Positions 8,238-53,800 of a stretch of DNA of 64,000 nt are shown here, piece after piece. How positions within the stretch are numbered: position 1 is the first letter of the stretch; every line of letters starts with the position of its first letter. This stretch comes from Naegleria gruberi (lineage: Eukaryota). Location: assembly GCA_000004985.1 (NCBI GenBank), contig GG738873.1; one strand, 5' to 3'. Both the position numbers and the translations under genes were made by a program. Below the pieces are notes generated by a model. It ran no database searches. It worked only from the letters and a program-made list of their open reading frames with translations, and was not told the DNA's origin.

Positions 8238-8349
8238 AAAAAGAAAAAACTAGGCAGTCCTTTTAAGTCTGCTATTGTTCTTCGAAACGTGAATCTGAGA
8301 GTTTCCACTACTAAGGCAGCCGATTCCCCATGTATGGCTGTAGATAAAA

Positions 8350-15200: not shown

Positions 15201-16286
15201 AAACCCTAACCATAGTTTGATTCATTAAGGCTGCATACCTGTAAACAGAAAAAGGCCTGTTTTTTTCATCCCAAGTTCTATCCCCCAGTTGACCTTGATC
15301 GTTAGCACCCCAGCTCCATAGTTTTCCTGATGAATCAATTGCGTAGGCTGAAAAATATCCTAGTGCGATTTGCTCAATTTTTGCACCTCTAAATCCATTT
15401 ACAAATGTTGGGACAAACTTTGTTTTGGTTCCTCCGGTAGCCAATTGTGAACGTTCATTTAACCCAAAAGCAAAAACTCCCTTGTTTGTGAGAATAAGGT
15501 TGGAAAATTGATTTGCCTCGATTTGAAGAATATCCAATCCATCTAAAAGTTCAACAGGAGCATTATATATTAATCTAGTATCATTGGTTAGATGAATTCT
15601 TCCAAGATTACCATTTTCAAAAACTCCAGTTGAGTACAATTTACCGTTGGGCATTAAAATTAATACATGTTTTAACCCAGCACTAATTCTATTTCTAATT
15701 CTTTTAATCGGCAGTCTTGTGTCAAATCTTTCGTAAACCCCTCTTTTACAATTGACAGTAAAATGATCTTGGTTTGTTTCATTTAAATTTGTTTCTCTAA
15801 AATACAATTCTTCACCATAGTCTTCTACGGTGTAATTCTTAACAATTTCAGTTTTTTTCGAAGTCAATTCATACTTACATTCATGACATCAGAAGATTTT
15901 CTTCCCAAATCCTCGATACTGTTTAATCCCAATGAAAGAATATATGAATTTTCCAGTTCCCAACTCAATACCTTTGCAACATTTTGATTGTTTTTGGAAA
16001 CCATAGATTCGAAAATAGTCTTATTGATATTAAGTTGTTCCAGGATTGGAGCTGCTAAATTCAATGCGTCCTCCTTGTCAATAGCTATTGGCTTGGCTCT
16101 ACTGCTGACAAATTTGTCGCGCTCCTCCTGAAGATTGGTCATAACGTTGATAAAACTCTTTTGTTTATCCTTCCAACTTTTAACCAAGGACATTTCATAT
16201 TGTTGTTCCTGATTGTTGATGTCGATATATCCACTTATCTCAACCGTATCATATATTAAAAGTACTAGTGGTAAAGTTGTCATCAT
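12262..16286 (-). CDS. paralog A of the secreted RCC1-repeat/Kelch-repeat/EGF-like/fibrinogen-related (FReD) family; exons 15879–16286 and 12262–15837 (41-nt intron 15838–15878)
   Basis: Exon 1 encodes a hydrophobic N-terminus (MMTTLPLVLLIY) and a ~110-aa helical module, ending ...DVMN before GTAAGT. Exon 2 has RCC1 signatures (GKLWSWGANDQGQLGD), Kelch-type YLFGG/YIFGG blades, Cys-rich EGF-like segments and two FReD-like modules (NCAEYSNPTNSSKTYQG...; VYCDMTTDGGGYTLV). Confidence 0.75.
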
Positions 16287-32662: not shown

Positions 32663-35600
32663 ATGATGAAGACCCTCAACGCTGGTTTGCGGTCTAAATT
32701 GCAATGTGTGTGTGTAGCTTTTTGTAGGTTGTATATTTCCGCTTACTATAAATTTTTCATAGTAATAATTTGCTTCACATTGAGTGTACATACATTTGAT
32801 GCCTCAAATGATCAACAACAACATGCTGTTGAACTTGTAAAAGGATGGAAAGAAAAACAAAATAGTTACAATAGAGTTCTGGTTGGACTAAAACAACAAA
32901 AAGATGATTTTTACTCCTCAAAGATAAAGCAAAAGCTAGTGAATATGCAAGAAGCACTTGATGGTGCTTCAAGGATATTGGATGACTTGGGAGTTAATCA
33001 AACAATGTTTGATCAAATGGTCACATCAAAGAATAAGGACTTGATAAGAGCAATGAGCGTGGAAGTGGAATTGCGCAATGTCATTACCTTGGCTGATAAC
33101 TCACAAAGAATATTGGGAGAGAATAGTTTTAATATGATTAATGTAAGTTTATTTTGAGCATTGACAATTTAGTTTTGTAAAGAATTTCACCGAAGCTATC
33201 TATGGAGAGGAATTATTATTCAGACAAAACACTTTGAACTTTTCAATGAACCACCAAATGTATTTCAACTCTAGACCAGGTATTTTTCCTTCCTATGAAT
33301 ATCATTCTTCTATTGTCAGAGTGAGAAACAGAATTGTTGCAGGTGCAAATCACGTACTTGTATTAATGCCTAATGGTAAATTGTACTCGACTGGTGTCTA
33401 CAATAATGGAAATTTGGGAAGAACAAGTCAGGATTCTAGACTCCTCTACAATAACCCTGTTGAAGTTCTTGACGAATTAGAAATTCTTCAAATTGAAGCT
33501 CACAGAAATAGCAGCATGGTGTTGACTACGAATGGTCTCTATGTTTTTGGTTTAAATGATCGTTCACAATTAGCAACTGGTGGAACTAAATCTGTGTTGA
33601 AAGCAACAAAAGTTCGTGGTTTTAACTTTGACACTAAAATAGTTCAAATTGCTATGGGTAATTATGCTTCGTATGCGATAGATGAAAATGGAAAATTGTG
33701 GGCATGGGGAGCTAATGATCAAGGTCAAATTGGTGACAGAACTTGGGATGAAAAGAATAGACCATTCTCTGTTTATAGATACGGAGCTTTAGCAAATCAA
33801 ACAGTTGTTAGAGTTTGTGCTGGAAATGGTAGTGTACTTGCTTTAACATCAACAGGTAATCTGGTAGCAATTGGAGACAACACATACGGTCAATTGGGTA
33901 CTGGTGATTACGTTTCAAGTGGTGAGCCTGTAATTGTAAAGATGAAACCATTCCAAAATGAGACAATCAAAGAAATTCAATGTGGTATGTTTCATAACCT
34001 TGTCCTTACAGCCAGTGGTAAAGTTTTTGCTTTTGGTGGTAATATGTATGGACAAGTTGGAACTGGTAACACAACAAACATACCAATACCAACTTTGATT
34101 TCTGGTATTGACTGCACCGTAACCAAGATCCACTCAAAAGGTCATGTGAGTTTTGCTGTTTGTGCATCTAAACCAGGGTATTTTTATTCTTGGGGATTGA
34201 ATGATATTGGGCAAACAGGTGCTGGACTTTCTTATGGATTAAAAATTCTATCACCAAAACTTGTAAAATACTCAGCTCACCCAATTGTAGATATTACTTC
34301 CAATGTTGATAATTCCTTCCTTTTTCTTGCTGATGGATCCATTCATGCCACAGGTGGCTGTTTTAATACCCAGTTTTTCCTTGGACAAGATTGCTTTGAT
34401 GCATCTCCCAAGTACTTTTCCGAAACCGTTCTAACAAAGAAGTATGCTTTCTCTATTAACGGACTTTTCACTCAAGTACGACACCAAACCAATATGCAAT
34501 TACACTGGTATCAGAGAAAACCAGTTTATTTCGAAATGGGTGATATTGCATATTTACTTCAAACAGAGAACACTCTTCCAACAAGAAGAAATAACGGGTT
34601 CAATATGTACACCACAAACGTTACAGCAAATGACATGGTATGGAAAATGGTTGAGTATAATGAAACTACCAACACTGGTTTCCCTCACTCTATTTATAAT
34701 ACACACGTCCTTAAACATGGTGAATATGTCTATTTGTTTGGAGGTGTTGTGAATGATGATATTTCAAATAGAATTTACAGAGCACCTGTCTATGATTTGG
34801 TTCAATCATGGGAATTAATTAATGAAACACTTCCAATTCCAATAGCATCTGGAATGCTTCTGACAGTAGGAGATTATGTTTACATTTTTGGTGGTATCAT
34901 TTCTATCTATGAGTTCAATTCTACCGTCGATCTTGGTCCAACAATGAGACACAATGTAACCAATTGTATAATGCGAGCTTCAACAACAAGCATAACAAAT
35001 TGGGAGATTGTACAAGATGTTATTCCCCTTCCCCTGCATTCTGCTTTTATCGAAGTGGTTGGTAATTATGTCTACTTGTTTGGTGGCAGCTCAACAGTAC
35101 GAGGAAGTGGTATTAATATCTTTAGAGCAACATTACAATCTCCAACTGTATGGGAGATGACCTTCGGTCTTCTTCCTTATTACGTTACTAATACCGGTCC
35201 ATTTTCCTCAACAGAAGATAAGTTATATATTTTTGGTGGTACAAACTCATCCACTAGTTCAACTGGGCCTTACTTTGCCTTTGGTAAGAAGAATGATATT
35301 ATTGGATCATGGACTGCAATACCGGATACAAACATAGAGTTGAATATTATTCACAATTCTACACAATTTGATTGGTGCACCAAGTATCCATTGTTATGCT
35401 ATCAATGTTCTAACCCAGATTATTTTTTCAGTGCTGTTACTGGGCACACTGGTCCACAATATTATGAGGCTACTAATCCAAGTGTCTGCTCTTCAGCTGG
35501 TATTTGCGTTGGTAATGATGGATGTAAATGCACTCCTGGTCGATTTGGTGACCGATGTCAATTTACAGGAATAGTGGCTTACAATAATGGCAGACAATAT

Positions 35601-36314
35601 GCCGATGGAAATGTTGCTGAGTCTTGTGCTGCCTACAAAAATCCAACTAACACCTCTCGAGTATATCAAGGTATAATTGGTGATGGTTTCTATATTATTC
35701 AAATTATTGGAACAACAACACCAATTAAAGTATATTGTGACATGACTACAAATGGTGGTGGTTGGATAGCTTATTATACAGGTAGTGCTAACAAGCCAGT
35801 ACATTTGGCTAAAGGATATCAAAACCCAGGTGAAGATGTAAACTCTGGAGATTACATCGTAGATCTTAGAAGTTTCTTTTTTACCCAAGTTATGTTTTCT
35901 AAAGGTGGACAAAGCGACTGGTTTACTTGTATTGAGTGTGGAAATGGTTACACAGTTGGTTATTCAAATGATGGTGCGTTGACTTCAAATAGCCTGGGTT
36001 CTTGGCGTGCCGGTGGAGCAGTTACTGGTACCTACCAGTTGTACATTGCAGACAATGCTCCAGCATACGCAGGAACAACAAACTCAGCTGCCTTCATGAT
36101 GTACTATTCAACATCAAGTTATACATTAAACCCAACAAGTGGATACGATACCACCTCATACACAATTACTGGTTACAGAACAGATACTGGAGGCAAGATT
36201 ACGAGAACATCAGTAGGTGGCAGTTCTATATATAATGAATGCTTTGGCGTTTGCTTTAGAGCAAACTTGGGAGGTTCTTGTGGTGCAGGCAGCATGACTG
36301 TTTACCTAAGATAG
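32663..36314 (+). CDS. paralog D of the secreted RCC1/Kelch/EGF-like/FReD family; exons ~32663–33142 and 33183–36314 (40-nt intron). The 5' exon structure is uncertain and exon 1 may contain a further intron
   Basis: The exon-1 module (VELVKGWKEKQNSY...FDQMVTSKNKD) is homologous to the gene A exon-1 module and ends ...NMIN before GTAAGT, the same position as gene A. Exon 2 has RCC1 (GKLWAWGANDQGQIGD) and Kelch signatures and a C-terminal FReD-like module (SCAAYKNPTNTSRVYQG...VYCDMTTNGGGWIAYY). Confidence 0.7.
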
Positions 36315-36422: not shown

Positions 36423-37886
36423 TTATTGGCTTTGCTTATTATTTAAGAGTTTTAGTCTTTTGGCAGCACTCTTTCTATATAAATGTTCCAACTTGGGGTA
36501 AACTTTTGCTTCTTCACAACAAGTATAAACCAGCTTGATATCATGTTCTTCAACATCCTTTTCTAAATGAGATATTATTGTTTTCCAATCAGGAATGGAA
36601 TCACTGAAATCCTGATTCAAAGCCTTTGTTCCTCCAAGAATAATGTACATTAGAATGACACTCTCCCATAAATAGCCTATAAGAGATTGCTTCACAACAT
36701 TATTTTTGACATGTTCTGAAACTAATCTCACAGCAAAACATCCTGTGATAGCATGTAGGGTAGCAATGTCCATCTTGTCACACTTCAAATATAAGGTCAA
36801 AGCAGCTTGGCAAAGGTCCTCCAATTCAAATAATAATTGATTATGATCTCCCAATATCATGGAGCATTGTACTGCAAATTCTTTCTGATCAATTACATCA
36901 CGAGCTTCTCTCATCAAGTTATGAATCAAGAATCCTCCCTTTTTTAATAAATCTTGTCTAAACTCATCGGTCAGATATTCTGGATGATTCTTTTCTGTTC
37001 TTTGAAGAATTTCAAGTAAGCTTTGAGGTTTTGAATCATCTGAAAGTGATTTCTTACCCAACGATTCAAGTTTTGGTTCAATATTCTGATAGGAATAAGC
37101 TTGATAGGCCAATGAATTGACAACCATCAAGGTATGGAAATTTTGGAGAATTGAATAACCTAACAAGATGATTGGATGAAAAGCTCCTCCAGAAATTCCA
37201 CTTAGCAATTCAACAACTGATTCATGAGACATGATATTCTCGAACAGTTCCTTCTCCAAGTGCATTGGTAGAATTTCTTCCTCTGAATCACCTTGTTGGG
37301 AACTGTTCATGACTTTAGATTGATCGTGTTGAATGACGTGTAAATAGACTAGAATGTGCATAAATCTACGATAGAAGAGAAAATCTGGACGATTCACACT
37401 AATTCTTCCCATGAAAATCTTATCGAAAATCCAGCTTAATTCTTCCTTAATGAAATGATCGAGTCTTTCCTTTGAAAAGTCCTTTTTCAATTGAGAAAGA
37501 AAAGGTTGATAGGTTTCTTCTTCCCATTTTCTCAATTCTGTGTTTTGATATTTAGCATTAGGATCAATTGGTACAAGTTTCTTCAAGTGATGATTCACAT
37601 TCTCCAAATACACCTTTCTATTAATAATTGGTTGTTCGAAATTTGCCTTAATGTGAAAGAGAGCTGACAAGACCATTGGTAAGTGATTACTCAATCCATC
37701 AGGGATCCTTTCATCCAATCCAAAACTAGGATACAAGTGCACACAAATATAATTCAACAACTCATCCATCCACAATGAATCATCTTGTGAGTCTGTGTCA
37801 ATGCTTTCCTTGGACATGAAATTGGCGGGAAAGATTTCTTGCATTAATTGTTCACTATTCTTTGAAATTTGAGAAAGGTCTGGCAT
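36423..37886 (-). CDS. hypothetical protein (487 aa)
   Basis: Single long ORF; no motif that I can assign with confidence. Confidence 0.4.
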   Translation of the reverse strand: MPDLSQISKNSEQLMQEIFPANFMSKESIDTDSQDDSLWMDELLNYICVHLYPSFGLDERIPDGLSNHLPMVLSALFHIKANFEQPIINRKVYLENVNHHLKKLVPIDPNAKYQNTELRKWEEETYQPFLSQLKKDFSKERLDHFIKEELSWIFDKIFMGRISVNRPDFLFYRRFMHILVYLHVIQHDQSKVMNSSQQGDSEEEILPMHLEKELFENIMSHESVVELLSGISGGAFHPIILLGYSILQNFHTLMVVNSLAYQAYSYQNIEPKLESLGKKSLSDDSKPQSLLEILQRTEKNHPEYLTDEFRQDLLKKGGFLIHNLMREARDVIDQKEFAVQCSMILGDHNQLLFELEDLCQAALTLYLKCDKMDIATLHAITGCFAVRLVSEHVKNNVVKQSLIGYLWESVILMYIILGGTKALNQDFSDSIPDWKTIISHLEKDVEEHDIKLVYTCCEEAKVYPKLEHLYRKSAAKRLKLLNNKQSQ

Positions 37887-38294
37887 GTTGCTTGTTTTTT
37901 TTGAATTGTTTCTCTTGAGATTTTTATTTTTAGAAATTCTATTTATTTATTGAGGAAGATTTTTTTGGAGTTTTGACATTTTTGTAAGTGGACATATAAG
38001 TGCGTATTAATATTTAATTGTGCGCATTTGTAAAATTAATTGAAAACAAGAATGATTCTGTCGTGGATTTCACAATAAATGAATGAGTGGTGTCATCAGG
38101 TTGGAATATATTGTTTACATTATTGATTAATGCATTTTCCAATTCATCATTCCTATGGCACAGTCTCAAGGTTAATATTAAGGTCATATTGAAAGGATGG
38201 ATGTAACCCTTAATAAGACCAAATACGACTGGGAACTCCAATTAGAAAAAATATTGGCAGGAAAAAATTACAGTGAAAATAGACTCCTAAAAAA

Positions 38295-41200
38295 ATGCTC
38301 TGTTTTCAACAGGAGAAGGAATTTCCTCACAAAAAGGAGTGTATGATAATGTATCTAATATTTATTATATTTCTTTGTCAATATTTATCATCATCAACAT
38401 CAACACCATCATTGGGTGGATTAATATTTATTAAGGCAGAACAAACAAGAGTCAATAAGAGACAACAAGATGATACAAGTTTTATCTATCCAACCTATAC
38501 TTCGGAACTCTATGCAGGTAGAACTGATTTCAGTTCATCTATGGACATTTTCTTTAAACAAATGATTCCATCACAGGTGGATTCTAGAATTATCTACATG
38601 TCCTCGAAACTCACCAATTCAATCTATCAATATAATGACACTGATAAGAGTTTGATACAGATATTGCAAGGGAGCTATATAGAAGGGGAGGACACCTTAG
38701 TAAATGGTGATTTACTGATGGTTGAGAAGGAAGAAGTCAATTCTATTCAGTATGATTGTTTATATTATAATATTGAATCTAGAATGTGGAAATATTCAAT
38801 GAGGGACAGAACATCTTCTCGATTAACTGTTTATGGATTGGAACAAGTTTCAAAATTGGGTGTCAATAGACCTTTCGGATTTTTGGATTGGGGAAAGAAG
38901 AATCGAGTGTATGGAGTAGTGGAGGGGAAATTATTTCATGTAGAAAGGGAATACAATTTGACTTGGAATTTCACACAAGTTAAGGAGCTTGATTTGGAAA
39001 ATACTCAATGGGAAGGTTTGGCCATGCATAAAAACAGTGAAATTATGTACTTGATTGCAAATCGTACAATTTTCATGGTTGACATGAGCAAGGACTTGTT
39101 CATTAAGAAATTACAAACTCATGAAAGTCCCAAAATACCTTTTGCTGTTTATCACGATGGACAAGATGAGTATCTTTACTTTACTGCCAATTACGATTCG
39201 ATTTTGGTAAAGTGTCCAACTAAGGAATGCGATAGTGCTCTACCCATCTATACTAGAGACGAAATGATTAGGTCAGGATGGAAAATATTGAGCATTCCGT
39301 CAGCATTTGCCATTACAAAAGATGTTTTCCTATTCAATTCGTATTTTCCAAGGAGGGATGATATTACACACCTTGCACTTTATTCAATGATGGATAATGT
39401 TGCCTATCCAATTTACTCAATGGATGGTCCTATTTGGAATGGTGTTAATGCTTTGAACAGTTCTATATTTCCAACAGGTAAGTTTACAAATTTTTGCCAA
39501 ATTACTATAAATATACAGCGGTAAACTTACTAAAACATGCTGATGGAAGAAAGGAATTGCTTATTAGTGATTATACGAAAATTAGATCAATCTCAATGAA
39601 AGATAGAACCATTTCAGTGGTAAAGGTAGACAATTTGTGCACTTCTTTCACACCACAACTGCCTGCACTCTCCAATATTGGCTCTTCGGTCAACCATTCT
39701 GATGGCAGCTCTACCATATACGCTGCTTCCATTCCAGATACTAATGCACAGTCTTACTCTATCAAAATAGCATCTAATGGGCACACTACGTGGTGTCCTC
39801 TCTCAACAGATATTGAGAACATACCAGTGCCTAATGAGAGCCCTCTGAATCAATCCATGTTTAATGATCCTTCTGGTATTGTCTATTTGAATGGAGAAAT
39901 TTATATTGCTGATACAAAATCCAATAGAATCAGAAAGATTACAAAAGATGCAAGAGTATTGACCTTAGTTGGAGGTGGTAATATTAAGGGAGATAACTTG
40001 ACAGGAACTGATACCTATGCGAATGCCCCTTTCGGTATTGCTGTTTGCAATTCAACAGGAAACGTTTATTTTAGTGTTTCTAACGACCATTGTCTCAAAG
40101 TCTACTCTCAACAAACAGGTCTTGTTCAAAACCTTGCAGGAGATTGTGGAAAACCAGGAATATTTAATTTTCCAAAAGCAATTTCATTGGTGGAGAATTT
40201 CCTCTTTGTTGCCGATTCAATGAATCATAGAATTGCGAGGGTTAATTTAGAGACACGTTTAGTGGAGAGTCTAATTGGAGATGGACAAGCAGGTGAGACA
40301 TCAGACGACAACTATAGCGTAAGATTGAATTCACCAACTGGGGTTCACTATTGTGATGGATATTTATTTGTAGCAGACACTAATAATCATAGAATATTGA
40401 AGGTTTCTCATATACTTGATGTAACAAGTTATGCATACGTTGAAGTCATAGCAACAGGTAAGTTAAAAATTTACATTTTTGGAATATTGACAAAATTACT
40501 AAAAATAGATGATGATGTGAAATTGGCATATCCATATGGTGTTCATGCTTTCAAGATGGGTTACAAAATGTTTTATATCATTACCAATACATATAACAAC
40601 AGATTAATCTTTGCACAAGAAACTCCTTCAAGATATTTCACAGAAATGGGAAGTGGATTGCCAGGTTACAATGGAGACCTTTCCATATTTGAGGCAAGTC
40701 TTTTCAATCCAAAGGGAGTCTGGGTATCTGACAACATTATCTATTTTACCGATTCATCAAATAACCTGATTCGAAAAATCAACTTGTCTCGATTATATTT
40801 TATGGTTGAAACTGTAGCTGGTGGGCATGGTGATGGTGGCTCAATTTTGAATACTCGTATCAAGATTACAAGTTTCTCTCAAGCTCCTGGAGGGATTGTT
40901 GTGACTGATATTCAAAACAACCTGATCAGATTGATAAAACAAGATGGAACTGTCTCTACACTTGTTGGAAGTGGTGGCACACTTTACAATGGAGAGCTAA
41001 TAACTTCCAAGATGGTTAATTTAAATTACCCTTTTGGAGTTTTTGTTTTCAATAATGAAATATACTATTCTGATTCCAAGAATCTGAGAATAAGAAAAGT
41101 GGATCTAGATGGAATCGTCTCAACTGTGATACTCGACGGTAGCTATCCTTCAGCTCTCAGAGTTAGACTTAATGGTGACATAATTTATGTTACTCAAACA

Positions 41201-43196
41201 GGAATTAAGATTTTCCATGCCAAAACAAGTGAATTCCAAAATATTGTAACAGACAGCAATTTTCTCAAAGCATCTGTTGAGTACGATTCAGATGATGGTT
41301 CGATTTATTATGCAACAGATACTTCTGTTGTCAAGTTGACTCCAAGATGTAAGAATGGTTATGTGTTGGATGACCAATTTTCTGAGTGTATTCCAGTATG
41401 TTTCGGATATAATCAATTGGATGTGGAACAAGTTTGTTCTGGACATGGATTGTGTCTAGAGCCAGATAACTGTGGATGTTTTGACCATTACACGGGTAAT
41501 CAATGTGAAAATGCCAAATGTTTCGGTCTTGATGTTAATAATCCAAATATTTGTAATGGAAGAGGTCAATGTGTCTCAGTTGACACCTGTTCATGCTCCC
41601 AAGGCTATTCAGGAATTGACTGTTCCATTCCAGAATGTTTCGGAATCTCTGGAAACATGTCATGTAGTGGATCAGAAAGAGGTAGATGCATTTCACTCAA
41701 CATGTGTCACTGTAATTTGCCTCATTATTCTGGAAGAGCATGCGAGTTAGCAAACTGCTTTGGAATTCCACAAAATGATGCAAAAGTTTGCTCTGGAAAG
41801 GGAAGATGTGTCCGTCCTAACGAATGCAAGTGTGATACTGATTTTTATGACAAGGATTGTTCCAAGTTTGATAATACGAATTGGACAGTTGGAGTTGTTG
41901 TGGGAATTACAGGCGGTTTTGTTATTTTGTTGATGATTGTTGGAGTTGTGTTGATTGTAGTGTTGAGAATTTATAAGAAACAAAAGAAAATATTGGACAC
42001 TGACCTCGAATTGGATCGACAATTGTTGAGTTCTGAAGAAATCAATGGTTATTCTCGTGGTCATACTTCAAATTCAAGTAATAGTGTGGAGGAAGATTTT
42101 TATATCCCACTGAATCAATTAAATATGGACAAACCAATTAAGAGATTGGGAAGTGGTGGTATTGGAAGTGTATTCATGACAAAGTAAGTGTTAAATTTTG
42201 CCTAAATTCTAACTTTTTCATCAATCTTATTTTGAAATATTTCCAAAGATGGAATAATATCATTGTAGCGGTCAAAGTGTTTGATTTGAATAATGAAAAC
42301 ATTGGAATTGAAGATTTTATCAATGAGGCCTTATTACTCTCAAGACTTCGTCATCCAAATATTATTTCTTTTTATGGAGTTTCTTCATCTCCAACCAAAA
42401 GATACATTGCCATGGAGTGTATGGATGCAAGCTTGGAATCCTATATTCAGAAAATGCAAGCATTGCAGTTAAAGCTTCCATTCCGTACAAAAGTGAAAAT
42501 TATTTCAGATATTTGCAGAGGTATCATGTATCTTCACAATTTACAACCAAATTTTATTGTTCACAGAGATTTGAAACCTGCAAATATTTTACGTAAGTTT
42601 ATTTGATTTTTGACATGACTCTAATGTGAGTGAAATAGTTGATAAGGATGGCAATTGTAAAGTTTGTGATTTTGGTTTGGGAAGAGTTTTATCAAAAAAA
42701 ACACTTTCGAATATTACAGCACAGGTTAGTACATTCAAACTATTTCGAATGATTATTTAACTGTATATAGATTGGCACATGTGCATACATGAGCCCAGAA
42801 ATCTCAGGATTCTCTGGTAAGGATATTGATCGTTCACACGTTAAGGCAATTGATATCTTTAGTTTATCCATAATTTTCTATCAAATATTATTCGAAGTGA
42901 TGGATCCATACTCGAGTCAAGATTTGAGAGTGGTGGAAAAGATTGGACTTAAGGAACCAATTCATTATGAATCTTTTTATCATTTGCATAGAGCCATTTG
43001 TGAATTCAAAGTTCGACCTTCAATTCCATTCAATACTATTGAGTCGTGTGTGGAGTGGTGTAAAGTTTATGATTTGGAAGAGAATGCAACAATTTATTGG
43101 AAATTATGTGAAGATGTTATAAAGGAATCATGGAAAGAAGAAGCTTCCGAAAGACCTCCTATTGAAAAATTGGTAGAAATTGTTGATTCATTGTAA
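38295..43196 (+). CDS. receptor-like protein: signal peptide, NHL repeats, EGF-like repeats, TM helix, Ser/Thr-type protein kinase; exons 38295–39477, 39519–40457, 40509–42183, 42249–42592, 42639–42724, 42771–43196
   Basis: NHL-type repeats (NRIRKITKDARVLTLVGG; HRILKV). Four EGF-like Cys patterns are followed by the TM helix VGVVVGITGGFVILLMIVGVVLIVVL. The kinase domain is split by three introns: GSGGIGSVFMTK | WNNIIVAVK ... HRDLKPANIL | DKDGNCKVCDFGLGRV ... | IGTCAYMSPE. All introns are GT..AG, 41–65 nt, and phases fit. Confidence 0.75.
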
Positions 43197-43222
43197 ACTG
43201 TTATAAATAAATATTTAAAAAA

Positions 43223-45073
43223 ATGTCATCATTGATAGATTGTGACAACACCTCTCAACACTATGAATATCTCCCCGAACAGCAATTACACTCACTAAAA
43301 ATCACACCAAATCATGATCACCAACCTTCTACAGCAAGAATTTCACTTCCCGTGATGAATACTCATGATGAGAATATTCAAATTGAAATTAATTCTGATG
43401 ATTATAATATTGATGAGATTAGTGTCGTGTTCTCGGGAGGAAATTTATCCGTGAACAAATGTTACTTGAAGGTGAAGAAGAAGTGTAATGAAAGGTTTGT
43501 TGTGAAATTGAGAGAATTGGAATGTTGTGATTTGATAATTATGAATGAATCGAAAGGGAAGATTGTGTTGGAATATGATTGTTTAATATTAAATCGATTG
43601 GAAATTTCGAATAACCAACAAGAAGAAGAAACGGTAGTGGAAAATCATAGTGATGTTGATTTTTGTGAATTGATAATTGGAGACGGTTGTCAATTTGAGA
43701 ATTATGCCAACTTGCAAGTGTTGAATTTATTGAAGGGTGAAGGATTGGTTAGAAATTTGGGAATGATGTTTTTTGGAAAGGATGTAGAAATCGAGTTGAA
43801 TAATTTGGAAAGTGTTGGAATTGTCAAATTTCCACAATTAGAAAGTTTTGTAAAAGAATTTAAATTAATTAATGGCGAAAGTGAACAAAATTTTACAGAA
43901 CCATTGCCTAGAGGATACAATTATCTCAACAGAGTTGCCCTTTTGAAGGGACTGATAGGGAAGAATACTAAAACCAAAAAACCACAAATTCTCTCCGACT
44001 CAATTCTAGAATATTTAAAGGAAAATCCTGTTAATTCATCAGATGATTTATCTGAGAAGGTGAATGAATATCTATTGAGAGTAGGTGGTACTGAGTACGT
44101 CTCTACATGGGTCTCAACTATTGCCCCGAATATTAGAAAAACACCATCCGCACAAGGTGAAATAAGTGAAAAATTAGAACCATGGACCACTGTTAATGTC
44201 AAATCGATTTATTGTGGAGCTGGAGAGAATGAATTCTGGGCATGCTTGGGAGAAGAGGCCTTTGTATCAACAGATTTTTTGAAAATTAAGCCAAAAGTCA
44301 ATCATCTACTCTATCCTAACATGAAAGGGAGTGATTTACTATCAATCTATGGACCGAACGAACCATTCCTCAACGATAACTTGAAAAATCAATCCAATCA
44401 AGAAATCATTGTTGTAAATACTCCAATATTGGACAGTAATTTACAGTCTATTGGAGAAAAACTTGCTGGAGATTTGGTAACGGTTTATGAATTTACTGAA
44501 ATTAATGGAAAATCACTTGTAAAAATATCTCCTGATGAGGAACATTATATTGAATCGGATTATCTTTCCTCTGAGATGGATAAGAATCTCCTCAATAGGA
44601 ATATTCGAGCATTCCTCGAATTAATTGCCTTTTGTGAAGCTACCTATACATTCGGATACAATCGACTCGTGAATGGAACACCAACCACTGATCCATTCCA
44701 AACATGCTACTCACACGGCATTGTCAATATCACAAGTAATCTCAATACTCATCCGTTCATTCTCGTCTCCCTTAATGCCACTCTAAAATCAACAGCAGCT
44801 GGAAAATATCAATATTTGAATAGAACTTGGCATTCCCTCCCTAAAGAAATTCACAACAATCTCTTTACACCATATGGACAAGACAGAGGAGCCATTGCAC
44901 TTTTAATGAGACGTGAAAGTCTTCAAGCCATCAAACAAGGCAATATTGAACTGGCCCTTAATTTATGTAATAAGGAATGGGCAAGTTTTCCAAACTCACC
45001 ATATGGTCAACCCACTAAAAAGATGGAAGAATGCTTGAAAAAATATTCAGACTTTCTATCAAGATTACAATGA
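43223..45073 (+). CDS. intronless protein with two SH3b-like modules and a possible lysozyme/chitosanase-like glycoside-hydrolase C-terminal domain (tentative)
   Basis: SH3b-like segments (EPWTTVNVKSIYCGAGENEFWACLGEEAFVSTDFL; DLVTVYEFTEINGKSLVKISPDEEHYIESDYL). A C-terminal segment (LIAFCEATYTFGYNRLVNGTPTTDPF) has an E-x17-D spacing reminiscent of GH46/GH24-type catalytic pairs. No intron in 1.85 kb. Domain calls are by eye and low confidence. Confidence 0.35.
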   Translation: MSSLIDCDNTSQHYEYLPEQQLHSLKITPNHDHQPSTARISLPVMNTHDENIQIEINSDDYNIDEISVVFSGGNLSVNKCYLKVKKKCNERFVVKLRELECCDLIIMNESKGKIVLEYDCLILNRLEISNNQQEEETVVENHSDVDFCELIIGDGCQFENYANLQVLNLLKGEGLVRNLGMMFFGKDVEIELNNLESVGIVKFPQLESFVKEFKLINGESEQNFTEPLPRGYNYLNRVALLKGLIGKNTKTKKPQILSDSILEYLKENPVNSSDDLSEKVNEYLLRVGGTEYVSTWVSTIAPNIRKTPSAQGEISEKLEPWTTVNVKSIYCGAGENEFWACLGEEAFVSTDFLKIKPKVNHLLYPNMKGSDLLSIYGPNEPFLNDNLKNQSNQEIIVVNTPILDSNLQSIGEKLAGDLVTVYEFTEINGKSLVKISPDEEHYIESDYLSSEMDKNLLNRNIRAFLELIAFCEATYTFGYNRLVNGTPTTDPFQTCYSHGIVNITSNLNTHPFILVSLNATLKSTAAGKYQYLNRTWHSLPKEIHNNLFTPYGQDRGAIALLMRRESLQAIKQGNIELALNLCNKEWASFPNSPYGQPTKKMEECLKKYSDFLSRLQ

Positions 45074-45168: not shown

Positions 45169-45999
45169 ATGAGAATCTTGTCCGTACTTGCAAAATCCAA
45201 AACTTTAATTTCCTTCCACAACTCGGCAGCCAAATCATCGTCATCACTGCTTTTCGGAAAACAAATAAAGAAAAATGGAAATTTAATTAAGAATATTCAA
45301 TACAATTATCAACAGGAGAGAAATATATTTATTAGAACAAAGGAAACACCAAATCCTGCCAGTATTCAATTTTATCCTATGGAAGTGAAAGTGCTGGATG
45401 AGAAGGTGTATCCAGACATTTCTTCATTGGAAATTACTAATCCGTTGCAATCATATGTATCTCCTCTTGCCAAGACACTTTTTAAAATTGATGGAGTGAA
45501 GAGTGTATTTCTCTGTAGAGATTTTCTTACTGTAACAATTGATGATCCAACCAATTGGACCGATGTAAAACATGATGTATTCTCAAGTTTGAATAACTTT
45601 TTTGAGAGTGGAGGTATTGTATTAAATAGAGATGCTCAACCAAATCCTGATACAATGGTTCAGGAAGGAGATGATGAAATAATTATTGCAGTGAAGGAAA
45701 TTTTGGAAACTAGAATTCGTCCTATGGTTCAAGAAGATGGTGGTGATATTGTATTTTCGAGATTTGATGAAGAAACTGGTACTGTTTATGTCAAATTACA
45801 AGGAAGTTGTGCCAGTTGTCCAAGCTCTACAGAAACCTTAAAGAATGGTATTGAAAATATGCTCATGCATTATATTGCAGAAGTGAATGCTGTAGAACAA
45901 GAATTGGACGAATTAGATCAAATTAGTGAAGATCAATTGAAAAAGACTGAAGAAAAGCTTGCCAAAGAAAAGGAAATTATTGATCATTATACTAAATAA
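45169..45999 (+). CDS. NFU1: NFU1 iron-sulfur cluster scaffold protein (mitochondrial NifU-like)
   Basis: Matches NFU1 in the N-domain (IRTKETPNPASIQFYP...LFKIDGVKSVFLCRDFLTVT) and the NifU C-domain (IRPMVQEDGGDIVFSRFDEETGTVYVKLQGSCASCPSSTETLKNGIENML). Confidence 0.9.
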   Translation: MRILSVLAKSKTLISFHNSAAKSSSSLLFGKQIKKNGNLIKNIQYNYQQERNIFIRTKETPNPASIQFYPMEVKVLDEKVYPDISSLEITNPLQSYVSPLAKTLFKIDGVKSVFLCRDFLTVTIDDPTNWTDVKHDVFSSLNNFFESGGIVLNRDAQPNPDTMVQEGDDEIIIAVKEILETRIRPMVQEDGGDIVFSRFDEETGTVYVKLQGSCASCPSSTETLKNGIENMLMHYIAEVNAVEQELDELDQISEDQLKKTEEKLAKEKEIIDHYTK

Positions 46000-46141: not shown

Positions 46142-47773
46142 TTAAGCAATAAAGCAAACAGTTGTAATATCATCGAACTTGCCACCAAGTTGGCCAATCG
46201 CAACAGCGAATGGTGTTCTGGCCCATCTATTGAGTGCAACAGTTCTGGCTTCAAGAGTTACTCTTCTAGCCAACTCGCAAGCTTGCAATTCACCTCCAGG
46301 AGTACCTTGAGAAGAATTGGCAAGTAAATTATCTTTCATGTCCCATATTAAATTTCCAACAGATTCTGGGAAGAGATTATCCCAAACGCCATCAGTTGCC
46401 ATCACAAGAACATCATCCTTTTCCAATTTGATTTCTTCATCAACAGCATGTTCTGGCAAATCATGGTAGGCGGTACTATTCCCTGGTGGAACAACACCAA
46501 GTTGGAATGGACAATTGAAATAATGTTGTTTTTCCTTAGTTTGGAAAATACAGGCTCCTTCTCTAAAAACTGCAAGGCCTGAATCTCCCAAGTTAGATGT
46601 TCTCAAAATTTTAGTATTCTTGTCGTAGGAAGCAATCGAAGCTGTGGTACTTCCAGCAAGAACTTGTCTTTCATTTACAATTAAATCATATGCCATTTGT
46701 AAAATCTTGTTTGGATTACTCAAAAGTTGGCTATCACCACCCTCACAAACAAGTTTGGCATTGTACATGAGCTGGTTACTGATGAGAGATGGATCAACTC
46801 CAACCTCGGCCCAACCTCCAACACCATCAGCAACACCAATAATTGTATAATTATCATTCTCAAAAGTGAAGAAGGCATCTTCTCCGCATTGTTCCTTATA
46901 ATCAGAAGAATCTAATGATTTTGGTGCAGCAAATTTCTTTCCAACTCCAAAACCACATGCTTGTTTGGCATGACTCTCAATGGTAAAATCAAATTCGGAA
47001 GGTATTGAAGCACCAACAGGTTTTTCTTGTTGTTGTTGTTTTCTGTACAAATATTGTGGTACGTCACTAGTAGTGGATGGTTTAGCATTCTGAACACAGG
47101 TATTTAAATTATTGTAGGATTGGTATTTGAGTGGGATCATTCCTAGGAGAGATGAATGGAAATGTTTAAAAATGTTGTTAGTAGAGGTATTAGTTGTGGT
47201 GGTGGTGGAGGAAACTGTCCAATTGCTATTATTAAACAAGTGGGTTGGCAAAACTGATCGAACTAAACTATGACTATTACTTAAAGCCTTTGAAGCAAGA
47301 CAAGTTGTAGTTTTTTGAAACATGGGTTCAGAAGCTTGATCTGATGAAGGTAAATCCGACTGAGAAGTTGTAGTAGAGGTACAAAACAAGTCCTTGTATT
47401 TTTTGTTTTGTTGTTCTGCTGCTGCTTCAGAGTGGATGAATAAAGTTGCTGCTGTTGTTGTAGCTGGTGTGTTGAGTGTTAAATTATTGCTCTTACTGCC
47501 TGCTGCTGAATGTTGAAAGGAGGAAATGGATAAATTATCTTCTTCTTCTTCAATAAAATCGAATAAATCTTCAATGTATTGTGGATGTTGGGAGTAACTT
47601 GGACTGTCTGGGTTTTCAAAAGAGGTATTAGATGGTTTTTGATTAATTTGACTTGTTGCTGCTTCAGAGGTAAAAGTATCAGCACTATTTGTTGCTTTTG
47701 TAGGGGTTAGCAAGGATGAGAATGGAAAACTATTTGAAGAAGGTAGAGACAATGATTGGTTTTGAGAGGCCAC
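46142..47773 (-). CDS. PP2C-family phosphatase of the PPTC7 type with a long low-complexity N-terminal extension
   Basis: GVADGVGGW, NLGDSGLAVFREG, QHYFNCPFQLG, ATDGVWDN and GGKFDDITTVCFIA all match PPTC7/SpoIIE-like PP2C. Confidence 0.85.
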   Translation of the reverse strand: MASQNQSLSLPSSNSFPFSSLLTPTKATNSADTFTSEAATSQINQKPSNTSFENPDSPSYSQHPQYIEDLFDFIEEEEDNLSISSFQHSAAGSKSNNLTLNTPATTTAATLFIHSEAAAEQQNKKYKDLFCTSTTTSQSDLPSSDQASEPMFQKTTTCLASKALSNSHSLVRSVLPTHLFNNSNWTVSSTTTTTNTSTNNIFKHFHSSLLGMIPLKYQSYNNLNTCVQNAKPSTTSDVPQYLYRKQQQQEKPVGASIPSEFDFTIESHAKQACGFGVGKKFAAPKSLDSSDYKEQCGEDAFFTFENDNYTIIGVADGVGGWAEVGVDPSLISNQLMYNAKLVCEGGDSQLLSNPNKILQMAYDLIVNERQVLAGSTTASIASYDKNTKILRTSNLGDSGLAVFREGACIFQTKEKQHYFNCPFQLGVVPPGNSTAYHDLPEHAVDEEIKLEKDDVLVMATDGVWDNLFPESVGNLIWDMKDNLLANSSQGTPGGELQACELARRVTLEARTVALNRWARTPFAVAIGQLGGKFDDITTVCFIA

Positions 47774-50296: not shown

Positions 50297-50879
50297 ATGA
50301 CCCAATTGTTGGGTCATGTAATGGTGATCCACAATTTTTGTACAGTATATTGTTAACTAACTGAAATATTTCGGCCTTTTTCCATATGTTGTAAATAAAC
50401 ATGAGTATCCTTTTAATTATTATTAATTAGAACAATTTTTTTAATGCAATTGTAAATGTTTGGAAAGTGCATCATACCTTCTTAACAGTTCCAAAAACTT
50501 CTCTATTTCACCATTTATGGATCCTCAAATTTCTGCTTCCCACATCTAACAAATTGGTCTTTTTGCAATTCTATTGACAATGAAAGAAGTTGTTTCTAAA
50601 AGCTAGAAAATTATCTGGATATCTGAATATCTCGTTCATTTTGTATTGAATAAACTTCAATATTGTGCCATTCACATTGTCACAAATAACACTACTTCAA
50701 ACTTTCTTTGCAGTGCTCACTCATGTTCATAAACAACCGTTTGAAACTTGAACAAGTACATGAATGAGATTGCAAGTCCGATCTTTATATTGGCAACTGA
50801 ACTCCATGGAGAGTAGTATCTTGTGCCCGACCTTTCCTTGTGGAGAGACCAAGAACAAAGACCAATAACTTTCAAAAAA

Positions 50880-53800
50880 ATGGACAAATTGAAACTCAAC
50901 AACACTAATAGCTCAACATTCTTGCTACTATTGTTGTTTTTGCACTTGTTGTTTCTTGCTGCCCAACCAATTGTCCACGGTCAATCTTTATACCATGTAA
51001 AAACCATAGCAGGTAGTTATCCCTATGGTTACAATGGTGATGACATTGAACCTACCAAGGCAGAAATCACCCTACCTGATGGTCTTGCACTCTCTCCAAG
51101 CAACAATGGTGACATTTTCATAGTTGACAAGATAAATTGTCGAGTGAGACAAGTAGTGGCAAGTAGTGGTAAAATTAAAACAATTGTTGGTGTGGGTATT
51201 CCTGGTTCTGTCACGACAACTATAGCAACTATGGCTCGTTTGAATTATCCTAGTGCACTTGCTTTTCAGAACAGTGATGTCATGTACTTGTCTGATAATA
51301 GTCATGTTATTCGAAAGGTAGTATTATCTAGTAATTTGATTAGTACATATGCTGGTCAAGTTGGTGTACCAGGGAGTATTGGAGATGATGGAGTAGCTAT
51401 CAATGCACTGTTGAATACACCAAGTGGAATTGCCATCTCTCCTGTGAATAATAATTTATATATTGCAGATACCTCAAATAACAAAATTCGTGTGGTTTCG
51501 TATACGGATGGTATCATTAGAACATTTGCTGGAGGTGGAACAGATACATCCACTGTGGTACAGGATGCAACTAATGCACAGTTTAACTTCCCCACTTCCA
51601 TTGCAATCTCTAATAGTGGAGAAGTTTACATTGGCGATGACAAGATTAGAAAGGTGTTCAATAATGGCACCAGTGTACTTCTGTTCACTTCTTTTGGACT
51701 CTCTGGCCAGACTAATACAGTTTATGGAATGGCAGTATCTCCAATAACTGGTGCTCTCTATGTTACTGTTTCAGATAGAGTATACATGATTCAATCGAAT
51801 GGAGTTGCAACATTAATAGCTGGATCAGGAGCTGGCTATGCTGGAGACAATCAATTGGCATCCAATGCCATGTTCAGAGTCACAAGAGGCATTGCTATAT
51901 CCTCAAGTGGGGAGATTTTCATTTCTGATGGTGGAAATAACAGAGTTAGAAAGATTAACACCAACAATATCATCGCCACCGTAGCTGGAACAGGTTCCAA
52001 TCTTGCCTACAATGGTGATAATATTGAGGCAGTGAAGGCAAAACTCTTTGGCCCAGAATCGGTTGCTGTCGCTCCAAATAATGAGGTTATTGTGGCCGAC
52101 ACAAGAAATGATAGATTGAGAAAGATTTCACTTGGTGGAATAATCACAACCATTACTCCAAGTTATAGTTCACCCAGATCTCCTCTCGTGCCCAATGTAG
52201 GGGAGTACTATTTTGTTGATTCGTCAACTGTGAAATATCTCATATCTTCTAGTGGCATTGTAATAACTAAAGCTGGATCTGGAACTACTGGATACAATGC
52301 TGATAACATTCCCGCTACAAGTGCTCATTTAAATTTTCCAAAAGGAATTGCCAGATCCACAAATGGAGATTTGTTCATTACCGATTCTGGAAATCATCGA
52401 ATTAGAAAAGTGTTTTTAAATCAGACCATCATTACTGTAGCTGGTACTGGTACTTCTGCCTACAATGGAGATGGGCTATTAGCAACTAGTGCCAATATTA
52501 ATAATCCATATGGAATTGTACTGACCTCTAATAATGAAGTTATTTTTTCAGAGTATGAAGGCCATCGAGTGAGAAAAATTCTCAATGATGGAACCCTCAT
52601 TACCATTGCAGGAACTGGGGTGGATGGGTATAGTGGGGAGAATTTGAGCGGTTCTAATTCAATGTTGAGATATCCTGCTGGTCTTGCCATTTTATCCAAT
52701 GATGAACTATTGATTTCTGATTCCCAAAACCATGCCATTAGGAAATTATTTAAGAATGGAACTTTGATAACCATTGCTGGTACTGCACCACTGTATGGAT
52801 ACAATGGTGAGAATTTGCACCCTTTGGAAACTCAATTTTATGGACCAATGGGTGTAGCTCTATCTGCTGATGAATCTAAAATTTTCATTGCTGACACAAG
52901 TAATGGAAAGGTGAGAGCGATCTCTTTTGGTTGTGACCTACAGAATCAATGTAGTGGGCATGGAGATTGTGCAGTGAACAATTGTTCGTGTTATTCTGGT
53001 TGGAGAGGAAGTTCTGATTGCTCTCTCTTCTCATGTGAAACATTGAATGCCTGCTCTGGACTTGGTACATGTGTGAGTAATAATACATGCTCATGTACTA
53101 GTGGATGGAAGGGAAGCCTCGATTGTTCCCACTTCTCATGTGAAACATTGAACAATTGTTCAGGGCATGGTGCATGTGTAGGTCCCAATACATGTTCATG
53201 TGATTTGGGGTGGAAGGGAAGCCTCGATTGTTCTTTCTCATGTGAAAAATTGAATGCCTGCTCTGGACATGGTGTCTGTGTGAGCAATAATACGTGTGTT
53301 TGCGATTCTGGTTGGAAGGGAAGTCTGGATTGCAATCTCCCTTCCTGTGAAATGTTTAAAAATTGTTCAGGACATGGCTCTTGTTTGAGTAGTAATACAT
53401 GTTCGTGCTTGAGTGGATGGAAGGGAAGCCTAGATTGTTCCCTATTCTCTTGTGATGCTGTGAAAAATTGTAGTGGAAATGGAACATGTACATCAAGTAA
53501 TGGTTGTTCATGCCTGGAAGGATATGGTGGATTGAGTTGTGATAATAGAATTGTTCCTCCTACCTATGTCTCTCCACTTGCATCCAAGAATGGTCCAGTT
53601 ACTACTACAGGTAATTCTAACATTGGATTGATTGTTGGATTGGTTGTGGGTTTAACATTATTGGTATTGTTAATATTGCTTGCAATCATTGTTACCATCT
53701 GTCTCATTGTGAAATTAAAGAAGAAGAAAAGCAAACCACTGGTTACTAATGAAGAACCAATTGAAATGATAACAACCATTGATGAAAATGTTACTCAAAC

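What the first reader, a model, noticed from the sequence alone, without database searches (positions are those of the whole stretch)
43223..45073. Intronless gene with bacterial-type SH3b-like modules and a possible glycoside-hydrolase-like tail: candidate horizontal acquisition
In a locus where almost every gene over 1 kb has short introns, this 1.85-kb ORF has none. It contains two segments with the bacterial SH3b pattern (hydrophobic-x-VNVKS...W.x.G....V..D(F/Y)L) and a C-terminal region with an E...D spacing reminiscent of lysozyme/chitosanase-type catalytic dyads. The usual context for SH3b plus a glycoside hydrolase is bacterial or phage cell-wall hydrolases, so a foreign-origin gene domesticated in a eukaryote is plausible. 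My domain assignments here are by eye and weak.
Basis: inference. Interest (0 to 1): 0.6.

Follow-up and report, generated by a model that had tools for sequence, protein, structure and literature searches.

The report
Phage-type lysozyme gene in Naegleria
This Naegleria gruberi gene ends in a cell-wall-cutting enzyme domain of the phage lambda lysozyme type, almost certainly acquired long ago from a bacterium or phage and fused to a large orphan N-terminal region; databases already label it "muramidase", and it is one more example of a known kind of gene transfer.

Summary
The 616-codon ORF at 43223-45073 (+) is real. It is XP_002676182.1 / D2VI17, "muramidase [Naegleria gruberi]"; the database model starts at Met45.

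Residues ~453-612 are a true glycoside hydrolase family 104 (GH104) domain, the phage lambda R lysozyme type of lytic transglycosylase:
- PDB 1am7/3d3d match at E 2e-17, and PHROG endolysin at E 4e-31.
- The AF2 model superposes on 3d3d with TM 0.82.
- The catalytic Glu (E472) and every residue at least 99% conserved in the family are kept.

All detectable relatives are bacterial, phage or metagenomic, at 31-44% identity by BLAST/tblastn. This supports a foreign origin, but an old one. GC3 and codon usage match the neighbours, the branch is the longest in the tree, and no donor is identifiable.

The SH3b claim is not established. Segment 1 gives only a sub-threshold Pfam SH3_3 match (17 bits against a cutoff of 27). 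Segment 2 gives none.

Residues 1-446 have no homolog among 1.84 billion representative proteins.

The intronless argument fails, because larger neighbouring genes are also single ORFs.

By hydropathy, no signal peptide or membrane segment is detectable.

Phage lysozyme transfer into eukaryotes is a known kind, so interest is modest.

The parts
43223..45073 (+). Complete intronless ORF of 616 aa including the stop codon. It is Naegleria gruberi XP_002676182.1 / EFC43438.1 / D2VI17, 'muramidase'.
   Evidence: ORF. (100% identity to P0001, 572 aa, on a 461,873-bp N. gruberi contig).
43355..43357 (+). Met45, the start codon used by the database gene model (572 aa). Which of Met1 and Met45 is used is not known.
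   Evidence: P0001 begins MNTHDENIQ, which is residue 45 of the ORF. (sequence).
43355..44089 (+). Orphan N-terminal region (residues ~45-289). AF2 predicts mostly beta strands followed by a few helices, at low confidence. Function unknown.
   Evidence: no homolog among 1.84e9 representatives. (no family match). (AF2 pLDDT 33-64; no fold match at E<0.08).
44129..44284 (+). Candidate SH3b-like module 1 (residues 303-354). Sub-threshold match only.
   Evidence: SH3_3, E 0.067. (E 0.0057, 17.3 bits against cutoff 27, profile positions 4-54 of 54). (no PDB support). (pLDDT ~30).
44375..44557 (+). Claimed SH3b-like module 2 (residues ~385-445). Unsupported by any profile of known function.
   Evidence: no Pfam, PDB or NCBIfam match. 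(only phrog_8844, unknown function, E 0.004). (no significant similarity to module 1).
44579..45058 (+). GH104 (phage lambda lysozyme-type) lytic transglycosylase domain, residues ~453-612.
   Evidence: 1am7/3d3d, E 2e-17. (phrog_90 endolysin, E 3.9e-31). (AF2 pLDDT mostly above 85 outside the insertion loop; TM 0.82 and rmsd 2.6 A to 3d3d_A). (family members).
44636..44638 (+). Codon of Glu472, the counterpart of the catalytic Glu19 of lambda lysozyme.
   Evidence: invariant in 205 relatives; aligned with lambda E19.
44672..44728 (+). Lineage-specific insertion inside the catalytic domain (residues ~484-502, around TPTTDPFQTCYSHGI). It lies between the catalytic-Glu motif and the conserved His-Pro motif and is modelled with low confidence.
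   Evidence: alignment gap in all relatives. (pLDDT <50 at model residues 206-218).

Best explanation
The gene encodes a chimeric protein.

C-terminal domain. The last ~160 residues are a lambda-lysozyme-type (GH104) peptidoglycan lytic transglycosylase. A Naegleria ancestor acquired it from a bacterium or a tailed phage or prophage. Since then it has been fully adapted to the host in base composition and codon usage.

N-terminal region. The ~450 N-terminal residues are lineage-specific. They may include one or two small beta modules that could bind the cell wall.

Inferred mechanism. Glu472 acts as the single acid catalyst on the MurNAc-beta-1,4-GlcNAc bond of bacterial peptidoglycan, and the product is 1,6-anhydro-MurNAc muropeptides. 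In a bacterivorous amoeba this most plausibly serves killing or digestion of bacteria.

Shown here: domain identity, fold, conserved active site, eukaryotic genomic context, and a prokaryote/phage-dominated family.

Inferred, not shown: the enzymatic activity, the direction and timing of the transfer, the cellular compartment, and any role for the N-terminal region.
For: Domain identity:
- phmmer against PDB lambda lysozyme 1am7/3d3d, E 2e-17.
- PHROG_90 endolysin, E 3.9e-31.
- The AF2 model with a 35-sequence alignment has pLDDT mostly above 85 in this domain, outside the insertion loop. Foldseek gives 3d3d_A as top hit, E 1.7e-8, TM 0.82, rmsd 2.6 A.

Active site:
- E472 aligns with lambda E19.
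- All 20 columns conserved at 99% or more across 205 relatives are retained: A463, L465, E472, Y479, H510, P511, S523, A525, A526, G527, Y529, Q530, Q553, D554, W586, A587, S588, P590, Y594, Q596.
- GH104 enzymes use one acidic residue and form 1,6-anhydro-MurNAc (PMC7511926).

Foreign origin:
- Relatives were found in 634 phage records, at least 588 stretches of bacterial genomes from many phyla, at least 598 stretches of phage-sized IMG/VR contigs, the 80 listed all 51 kb or shorter, and metagenomes.
- The closest relative's contig has overlapping, prokaryote-style genes.
- A 2012 CAZy survey found GH104 in 0 of 42 eukaryotic genomes and 95 of 1398 bacterial genomes (PMC3541169).

Not contamination:
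- The gene sits on a 461,873-bp contig between intron-bearing NHL-EGF-kinase, Nfu1, PP2C and CLU genes.
- Its GC3 and codon usage are the same as theirs.

Chimeric build:
- Residues 1-446 have no homolog anywhere.
Against: - No signal peptide or transmembrane segment is detectable at either candidate start. The maximum 19-residue Kyte-Doolittle mean is 0.92. How the enzyme would meet peptidoglycan in a phagosome is therefore unexplained.
- No expression or activity data could be found.
- The residue after the catalytic Glu is Ala, where 96% of relatives have Gly. Three other positions conserved at 75-87% also differ.
- The tree is neighbour-joining without bootstrap, and the Naegleria branch is the longest in it (0.313 against a median of 0.10). 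The placement among particular bacteria means nothing.
- I could not search eukaryotic genomes systematically. The word-index searches even failed to list the gene's own protein. Absence from other eukaryotes, including other Naegleria species, is therefore not proven.
- GH104 has been reported in Umbelopsis fungi (PMC7928374).
Confidence: 0.72

Rival explanations
1. En-bloc transfer. A complete bacterial or phage modular cell-wall hydrolase (two SH3b wall-binding modules plus catalytic domain) was transferred as one unit, and the SH3b modules have since diverged almost beyond recognition.
For: - Pfam SH3_3 matches residues 303-354 over nearly the whole model (positions 4-54 of 54) at E 0.0057 for the excised segment.
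- SH3b-plus-muramidase architectures are common in bacterial and phage lysins (general knowledge).
- Low-confidence AF2 secondary structure shows beta strands in both segments.
Against: - The score is 10 bits below the gathering cutoff.
- Segment 2 has no match.
- The two segments are not significantly alike.
- Residues 1-446 have no homolog in 1.84e9 representatives, and none next to 164 bacterial/phage GH104 genes.
- The closest full-domain relatives have the GH104 domain at the N-terminus with a C-terminal membrane region.
- Ten relatives with N-terminal extensions have no Pfam domain.
Confidence: 0.15
2. A cytosolic or otherwise non-phagosomal role. Because it lacks a signal peptide, the protein acts in the cytosol on bacteria that escape their vacuole or on intracellular symbionts. 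Alternatively it processes peptidoglycan fragments, with the orphan N-terminal region giving targeting or regulation.
For: - No hydrophobic N-terminus or membrane segment at Met1 or Met45.
- The upstream gene's stop is only 26 nt before Met1, so there is no room for a missed signal-peptide exon.
- A large non-catalytic N-terminal region is retained as an open frame.
Against: - The evidence is purely negative.
- Hydropathy is a crude test, and no SignalP-type predictor was available.
- Unconventional delivery to phagosomes cannot be excluded.
- There are no localisation data.
Confidence: 0.12
3. A decaying or non-catalytic relic. The domain is retained but no longer cleaves peptidoglycan. It would be a binding module, a pseudo-enzyme, or a strain-specific gene on its way to loss.
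For: - Longest terminal branch in the family tree.
- Gly-to-Ala change next to the catalytic Glu, and a 15-19-residue insertion in the catalytic domain.
- No ortholog detected for the N-terminal part.
Against: - All residues conserved at 99% or more, including the catalytic Glu, are intact.
- A 616-codon frame remains open in AT-rich DNA.
- Codon usage is host-like, which implies long residence under translation-related constraints.
Confidence: 0.08
4. Bacterial or phage contamination, or an assembly chimera, rather than a Naegleria gene.
For: The catalytic domain's relatives are all prokaryotic or phage.
Against: - The ORF is 26 nt downstream of an intron-containing eukaryotic kinase gene and 95 nt upstream of Nfu1, on a 461,873-bp contig.
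- GC3 and RSCU are indistinguishable from the neighbours.
- Three quarters of the protein has no prokaryotic homolog.
- The best identity to any prokaryotic sequence is about 44%.
Confidence: 0.02

Closest known systems
Bacteriophage lambda lysozyme R (PDB 1AM7, 3D3D; CAZy GH104; endolysin and lytic transglycosylase)
   Same: - Homologous over the whole catalytic domain (30-33% identity in the structure-based alignments).
- Same fold (TM 0.82).
- Same catalytic Glu, and the same invariant H-P, S-T-A-A-G-x-Y-Q, Q-D and W-A-S-x-P motifs.
   Different: - Lambda R is a free-standing 158-aa enzyme released through a holin in a phage lysis cassette.
- Here the domain is the C-terminus of a 616-aa eukaryotic nuclear gene with no holin or spanin neighbours.
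- It carries a 15-19-residue insertion, and has Ala instead of Gly after the catalytic Glu.
Phage or bacterial lysozymes domesticated by eukaryotes: GH25 muramidases (Metcalf et al. 2014, PMC4241558), phage-type lysozymes in bivalves (PMC5303276), GH104 in Umbelopsis fungi (PMC7928374)
   Same: The same kind of event: an antibacterial peptidoglycan-cleaving enzyme of prokaryotic or phage origin, resident in a eukaryotic nuclear genome of an organism that meets many bacteria.
   Different: - A different glycoside hydrolase family from the GH25 and bivalve cases.
- A different host lineage (Heterolobosea).
- Fusion to a large orphan N-terminal region, and no detectable signal peptide.
- None of these papers mentions Naegleria or, apart from the Umbelopsis paper, GH104.
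Phage virion-associated or membrane-anchored GH104 proteins of ~345 aa (for example P0033, P0046, P0065, P0104)
   Same: Among the closest relatives that match nearly the whole catalytic domain (40-43% identity over ~89% of it).
   Different: Opposite architecture: GH104 at the N-terminus followed by a Gly-rich linker and C-terminal transmembrane segments. Nothing resembles the Naegleria N-terminal 450 residues.
SH3b (Pfam SH3_3) cell-wall-binding domains of bacterial and phage lysins
   Same: Segment 303-354 follows the general SH3_3 profile from end to end, and it lies immediately upstream of a muralytic domain, which is the usual place for such modules.
   Different: The score is below the family threshold. 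The second claimed copy is undetectable, and no structural confirmation was obtained.

Membership tests
GH104 / lambda-lysozyme-type lytic transglycosylase | Significant sequence homology to characterised members across the catalytic domain | tested here: met
   1am7/3d3d at E 2e-17. phrog_90 endolysin at E 3.9e-31. 629 phage records cover at least 80% of the domain.
GH104 / lambda-lysozyme-type lytic transglycosylase | Lambda-lysozyme fold | tested here: met
   AF2 model with pLDDT mostly above 85 in the domain, outside the insertion loop. Foldseek top hit 3d3d_A, TM 0.82, rmsd 2.6 A over 162 columns.
GH104 / lambda-lysozyme-type lytic transglycosylase | Single catalytic Glu (lambda Glu19) and the family-invariant residues | tested here: met
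   E472 is invariant and aligned to lambda E19. All columns conserved at 99% or more are retained. Deviations occur only at A473, N484, L547 and S566.
GH104 / lambda-lysozyme-type lytic transglycosylase | Cleavage of MurNAc-GlcNAc with formation of 1,6-anhydro-MurNAc | not testable with these tools
   Inferred from family chemistry (PMC7511926). Needs a biochemical assay.
SH3b (Pfam SH3_3, PF08239) | Profile match at or above the gathering score (27 bits), module 1 (residues 303-354) | tested here: not met
   13.8 bits for the whole protein and 17.3 bits for the excised segment; E 0.067 and 0.0057.
SH3b (Pfam SH3_3, PF08239) | Profile match, module 2 (residues ~385-445) | tested here: not met
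   No Pfam, NCBIfam or PDB match at E up to 10. The only hit is phrog_8844, of unknown function, at E 0.004.
SH3b (Pfam SH3_3, PF08239) | Small beta-barrel fold | tested here: inconclusive
   AF2 pLDDT is about 30 in this region, both with and without an alignment. No homologs exist to build an alignment. The afdb50 library was unavailable.
Horizontally acquired prokaryotic/phage gene in a eukaryote | Physically integrated in the eukaryotic genome among eukaryotic genes | tested here: met
   Flanked by NHL-EGF-kinase (with introns), Nfu1, PP2C and CLU genes on a 461,873-bp contig.
Horizontally acquired prokaryotic/phage gene in a eukaryote | Homologs essentially confined to the donor domain, with the query nested among them with statistical support | tested here: inconclusive
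   All listed relatives are bacterial, phage or metagenomic. The tree is NJ without bootstrap and has a long branch. Eukaryotic genomes could not be scanned. GH104 is reported in Umbelopsis.
Horizontally acquired prokaryotic/phage gene in a eukaryote | Compositional or codon-usage anomaly (a marker of recent transfer only) | tested here: not met
   GC3 is 0.299 against 0.304 pooled. The RSCU distance is 0.356 against a neighbour range of 0.19-0.50. The GH104 segment scores 0.602 against size-matched chunks of 0.49 +/- 0.09.
Phage holin-endolysin lysis cassette | Adjacent holin or spanin genes, or other phage genes | tested here: not met
   Neighbours are ordinary eukaryotic genes.
Secreted or lysosomal amoeba lysozyme | N-terminal signal peptide | tested here: not met
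   No hydrophobic stretch: the maximum 19-residue Kyte-Doolittle mean is 0.92, and none lies at either candidate N-terminus. This is hydropathy only; no dedicated predictor was available.

The most novel reading that the evidence does not exclude
A signal-peptide-less eukaryotic lytic transglycosylase that works outside the classical phagolysosomal route. One version is a cytosolic effector against vacuole-escaping or symbiotic bacteria. Its 1,6-anhydro-muropeptide products differ chemically from those of hydrolytic lysozymes. The orphan 450-residue N-terminal region would be a new targeting, wall-binding or regulatory module invented in Naegleria.
Probability: 0.1. Interest if true: 0.65.

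Novelty: new member of a known kind. Interest (0 to 1): 0.33.

Why it matters
This adds a Heterolobosean, GH104-family example to the short list of phage or bacterial muralytic enzymes domesticated by eukaryotes. The known cases involve GH25 muramidases, phage-type lysozymes in bivalves, and GH104 in Umbelopsis fungi.

Two features are worth a bench test:
- The enzyme type is expected to make anhydro-muropeptides rather than hydrolysis products.
- The protein has no recognisable secretion signal and carries a 450-residue region with no relative in about 15 billion predicted proteins.

Otherwise it is an already annotated muramidase gene and changes no general picture.

Tried and rejected
- Whole-protein and C-terminal word-index homolog searches were insensitive. 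The C-terminal search did not even return the gene's own protein, so I place no weight on them as evidence of absence.
- The first AF2 job, full length with a 52-sequence alignment, failed on the server.
- AF2 of residues 45-450 without an alignment gave mean pLDDT 40.6. Its Foldseek hits were noise (best E 0.08, TM below 0.2).
- phmmer of each SH3b-like segment against PDB gave nothing relevant.
- tblastn of residues 290-445 against 50,697 phage records gave only E >= 4.
- The internal-repeat test was not significant.
- Pfam has no model that hits this GH104 domain. NCBIfam also gave no hit.
- An exact-sequence contig look-up for P0001 found nothing.
- The afdb50 fold library, which could have shown eukaryotic GH104 folds, was unavailable.
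- Literature searches for the accession numbers and for 'Naegleria gruberi' with 'muramidase' found nothing.
- I looked in the window for EFC43444.1, a protein that the Naegleria pangenome paper places in a phage endolysin-like orthogroup, and did not find it.
- A giant-virus donor was considered. All 80 listed viral-contig hits are on contigs of 51 kb or less, so nothing supports it.
Full report
**Observation**

The window is Naegleria gruberi DNA. The ORF at 43223-45073 (+) is present exactly as described: ATG to stop, 616 aa. Its product is 100% identical to a 572-aa database protein that starts at Met45 of the ORF. That protein is XP_002676182.1 / EFC43438.1 / UniProt D2VI17, named "muramidase [Naegleria gruberi]", on a 461,873-bp contig. 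At about 35% G+C, a 616-codon open frame cannot be chance; roughly 7% of random codons would be stops, giving about 1e-20 (my arithmetic). The upstream gene's stop codon is only 26 nt before Met1, and the next gene starts 95 nt after the stop. There is therefore no room for a missed upstream exon.

**The catalytic domain**

- Residues ~453-612 match the two solved structures of bacteriophage lambda lysozyme (1am7, 3d3d) at E 2e-17, and PHROG_90 "endolysin" at E 3.9e-31.
- Pfam and NCBIfam have no model that detects the domain.
- An AF2 model of residues 285-616, built with 34 homologs, has pLDDT mostly above 85 in this domain outside the insertion loop. Its best PDB fold match is 3d3d_A: E 1.7e-8, target-normalised TM 0.82, rmsd 2.6 A.
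- In an alignment of 206 domain sequences, Glu472 aligns with the catalytic Glu19 of lambda lysozyme. Naegleria keeps all 20 columns that are at least 99% conserved.
- It deviates at only four less-conserved positions: A473 (Gly in 96%), N484, L547 and S566. It also has a lineage-specific insertion of 15-19 residues.
- This family is CAZy GH104. Its members are lytic transglycosylases that use one acidic residue and produce 1,6-anhydro-MurNAc (PMC7511926).

**The SH3b claim**

- For residues 303-354, Pfam SH3_3 matches nearly the whole profile. The score is only 13.8 bits for the whole protein (E 0.067) or 17.3 bits for the excised segment (E 0.0057), against a gathering score of 27.
- For residues ~385-445 there is no Pfam, NCBIfam or PDB match. 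The only hit is a PHROG of unknown function at E 0.004.
- The two segments are not significantly similar to each other: 131 of 2000 shuffles reach the observed local score.
- AF2 confidence is about 30 in this region in both models. tblastn against phages finds nothing.
- I rate module 1 as possible and module 2 as unsupported. Neither passes a membership test.

**The N-terminal region**

- Residues 1-446 were scanned exhaustively with HMMER against 1.84 billion representative proteins. They hit only the protein itself.
- They match nothing in 1.05 Mb of DNA around 164 bacterial and phage GH104 genes, and no family in Pfam, PHROGs or NCBIfam.
- The single-sequence AF2 model is poor (mean pLDDT 40.6), and its fold hits are noise.
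- The region is an orphan. The protein is a chimera of a foreign-type catalytic domain and lineage-specific sequence.

**Origin**

- Relatives of the catalytic domain are abundant:
  - 634 phage records at 34-37% identity;
  - at least 588 bacterial genome stretches from Proteobacteria, Bacteroidota, Chloroflexota, Saccharimonadales, Acidobacteriota, Cyanobacteria and others, at 31-43%;
  - at least 598 IMG/VR stretches, the 80 listed all on contigs of 51 kb or less, at 33-42%;
  - several hundred metagenomic proteins, the best at 43-44%.
- The closest metagenomic relative lies on a contig with overlapping, prokaryote-style genes.
- The best full-domain relatives have the opposite architecture, with GH104 first and then transmembrane segments. 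Ten relatives with N-terminal extensions have no Pfam domain.
- In a neighbour-joining tree, the Naegleria sequence sits among bacterial sequences on the longest terminal branch (0.313 against a median of 0.10). There was no bootstrap, and no donor can be named.
- A 2012 CAZy survey found GH104 in 0 of 42 eukaryotic genomes and 95 of 1398 bacterial genomes (PMC3541169). GH104 has since been noted in Umbelopsis fungi as a probable transfer (PMC7928374).
- Horizontal acquisition of the catalytic domain is the best explanation, but it is old. GC3 is 0.299 against 0.304 for pooled neighbours, and codon-usage distance lies within the neighbours' range for the whole gene and for the GH104 segment alone.

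**The intron argument**

It does not hold.

- The window contains ten stop-free frames longer than this ORF.
- The 1311-aa NHL-EGF-kinase gene at 50817-54749 holds all its domains in one ORF. It is a paralog of the intron-bearing gene just upstream of the candidate.
- The 1223-aa CLU gene does the same.
- From my own knowledge of the N. gruberi genome paper (Fritz-Laylin et al. 2010), most N. gruberi genes lack introns. I could not retrieve that figure here.

**Context**

The neighbours are ordinary eukaryotic genes:
- an NHL/EGF/transmembrane/kinase gene with introns (39494-43196);
- Nfu1 (45169-45999);
- a PP2C/SpoIIE-type phosphatase (46142-47773, minus strand);
- a second NHL-EGF-kinase gene, and CLU.

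There are no holin, spanin or other phage genes. Contamination is excluded.

**Mechanism and open problem**

The most likely function is cleavage of bacterial peptidoglycan by a single-Glu lytic transglycosylase mechanism, in the service of killing or digesting bacteria. This is inference from family chemistry and the amoeba's lifestyle.

The unexplained point is topology. By hydropathy, neither candidate N-terminus nor any internal segment is hydrophobic enough for a signal peptide or membrane span; the maximum 19-residue Kyte-Doolittle mean is 0.92. This leaves room for unconventional delivery or for a non-phagosomal, for example cytosolic, role. That is the most novel reading not excluded, at a probability of about 0.1.

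**Novelty**

- The gene is already annotated as a muramidase.
- I found no paper that discusses it.
- The Naegleria pangenome paper counts lysozymes under two orthogroups (OG0000047, which is endolysin A-like, and OG0011079). This accession was not found in the stored, truncated supplementary files.
- Transfer of phage or bacterial lysozymes to eukaryotes is an established phenomenon (PMC4241558, PMC5303276, PMC7928374).
- I class this as a new member of a known kind, of modest interest.

Noticed in passing
window 1-2922: The first ~2.9 kb of the window are Ns (2922 N in all; GC 0 in the first two 1-kb bins). This is an assembly gap at the window start.
   Followed up: no
window 39494-43196 (+) and 50817-54749 (+): Two paralogous receptor-like genes (NHL repeats, teneurin-type EGF repeats, a transmembrane segment, a protein kinase domain) flank the candidate. 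The upstream copy has short introns inside the kinase domain. The downstream copy is one uninterrupted 1311-aa ORF. This looks like intron gain or loss between close paralogs.
   Followed up: partly
window 12265-15888 (-), 26405-28570 (-), 29850-32081 (+), 33165-36311 (+): A cluster of four paralogous genes combines RCC1 repeats with Kelch repeats. Two of them also have a short fibrinogen C-terminal-like match. This is a local gene-family expansion with an unusual domain combination.
   Followed up: no
window 36426-37946 (-): A 507-aa ORF matches Pfam Questin_oxidase-like (E 1e-26). To my knowledge this family is best known from fungal and bacterial secondary metabolism, so this is another possible foreign-origin gene in the same window.
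   Followed up: no
window 3216-5201 (-) and 8344-10458 (+): Two long ORFs have clearly higher GC3 (0.43 and 0.40) and the largest codon-usage distance from the other genes of the window (0.47-0.50). They deviate more in composition than the candidate itself does.
   Followed up: no
window 43197-43222: Only 26 nt separate the stop codon of the kinase gene from the first ATG of the lysozyme ORF. The database model instead starts at Met45 (43355). Which start codon is used is unresolved.
   Followed up: partly
outside the window (N. gruberi EFC43444.1): The Naegleria pangenome paper (PMC9928731, supplement) puts EFC43444.1 in an orthogroup whose best annotation is mycobacteriophage D29 endolysin A (lysozyme-like). 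That accession is six numbers away from this gene's EFC43438.1. I could not find it in the window. A second phage-type lysin gene may lie nearby on the scaffold.
   Followed up: partly
window 46142-47773 (-): A PP2C/SpoIIE-type phosphatase domain is preceded by ~280 residues of Ser/Thr/Asn-rich, low-complexity sequence.
   Followed up: no
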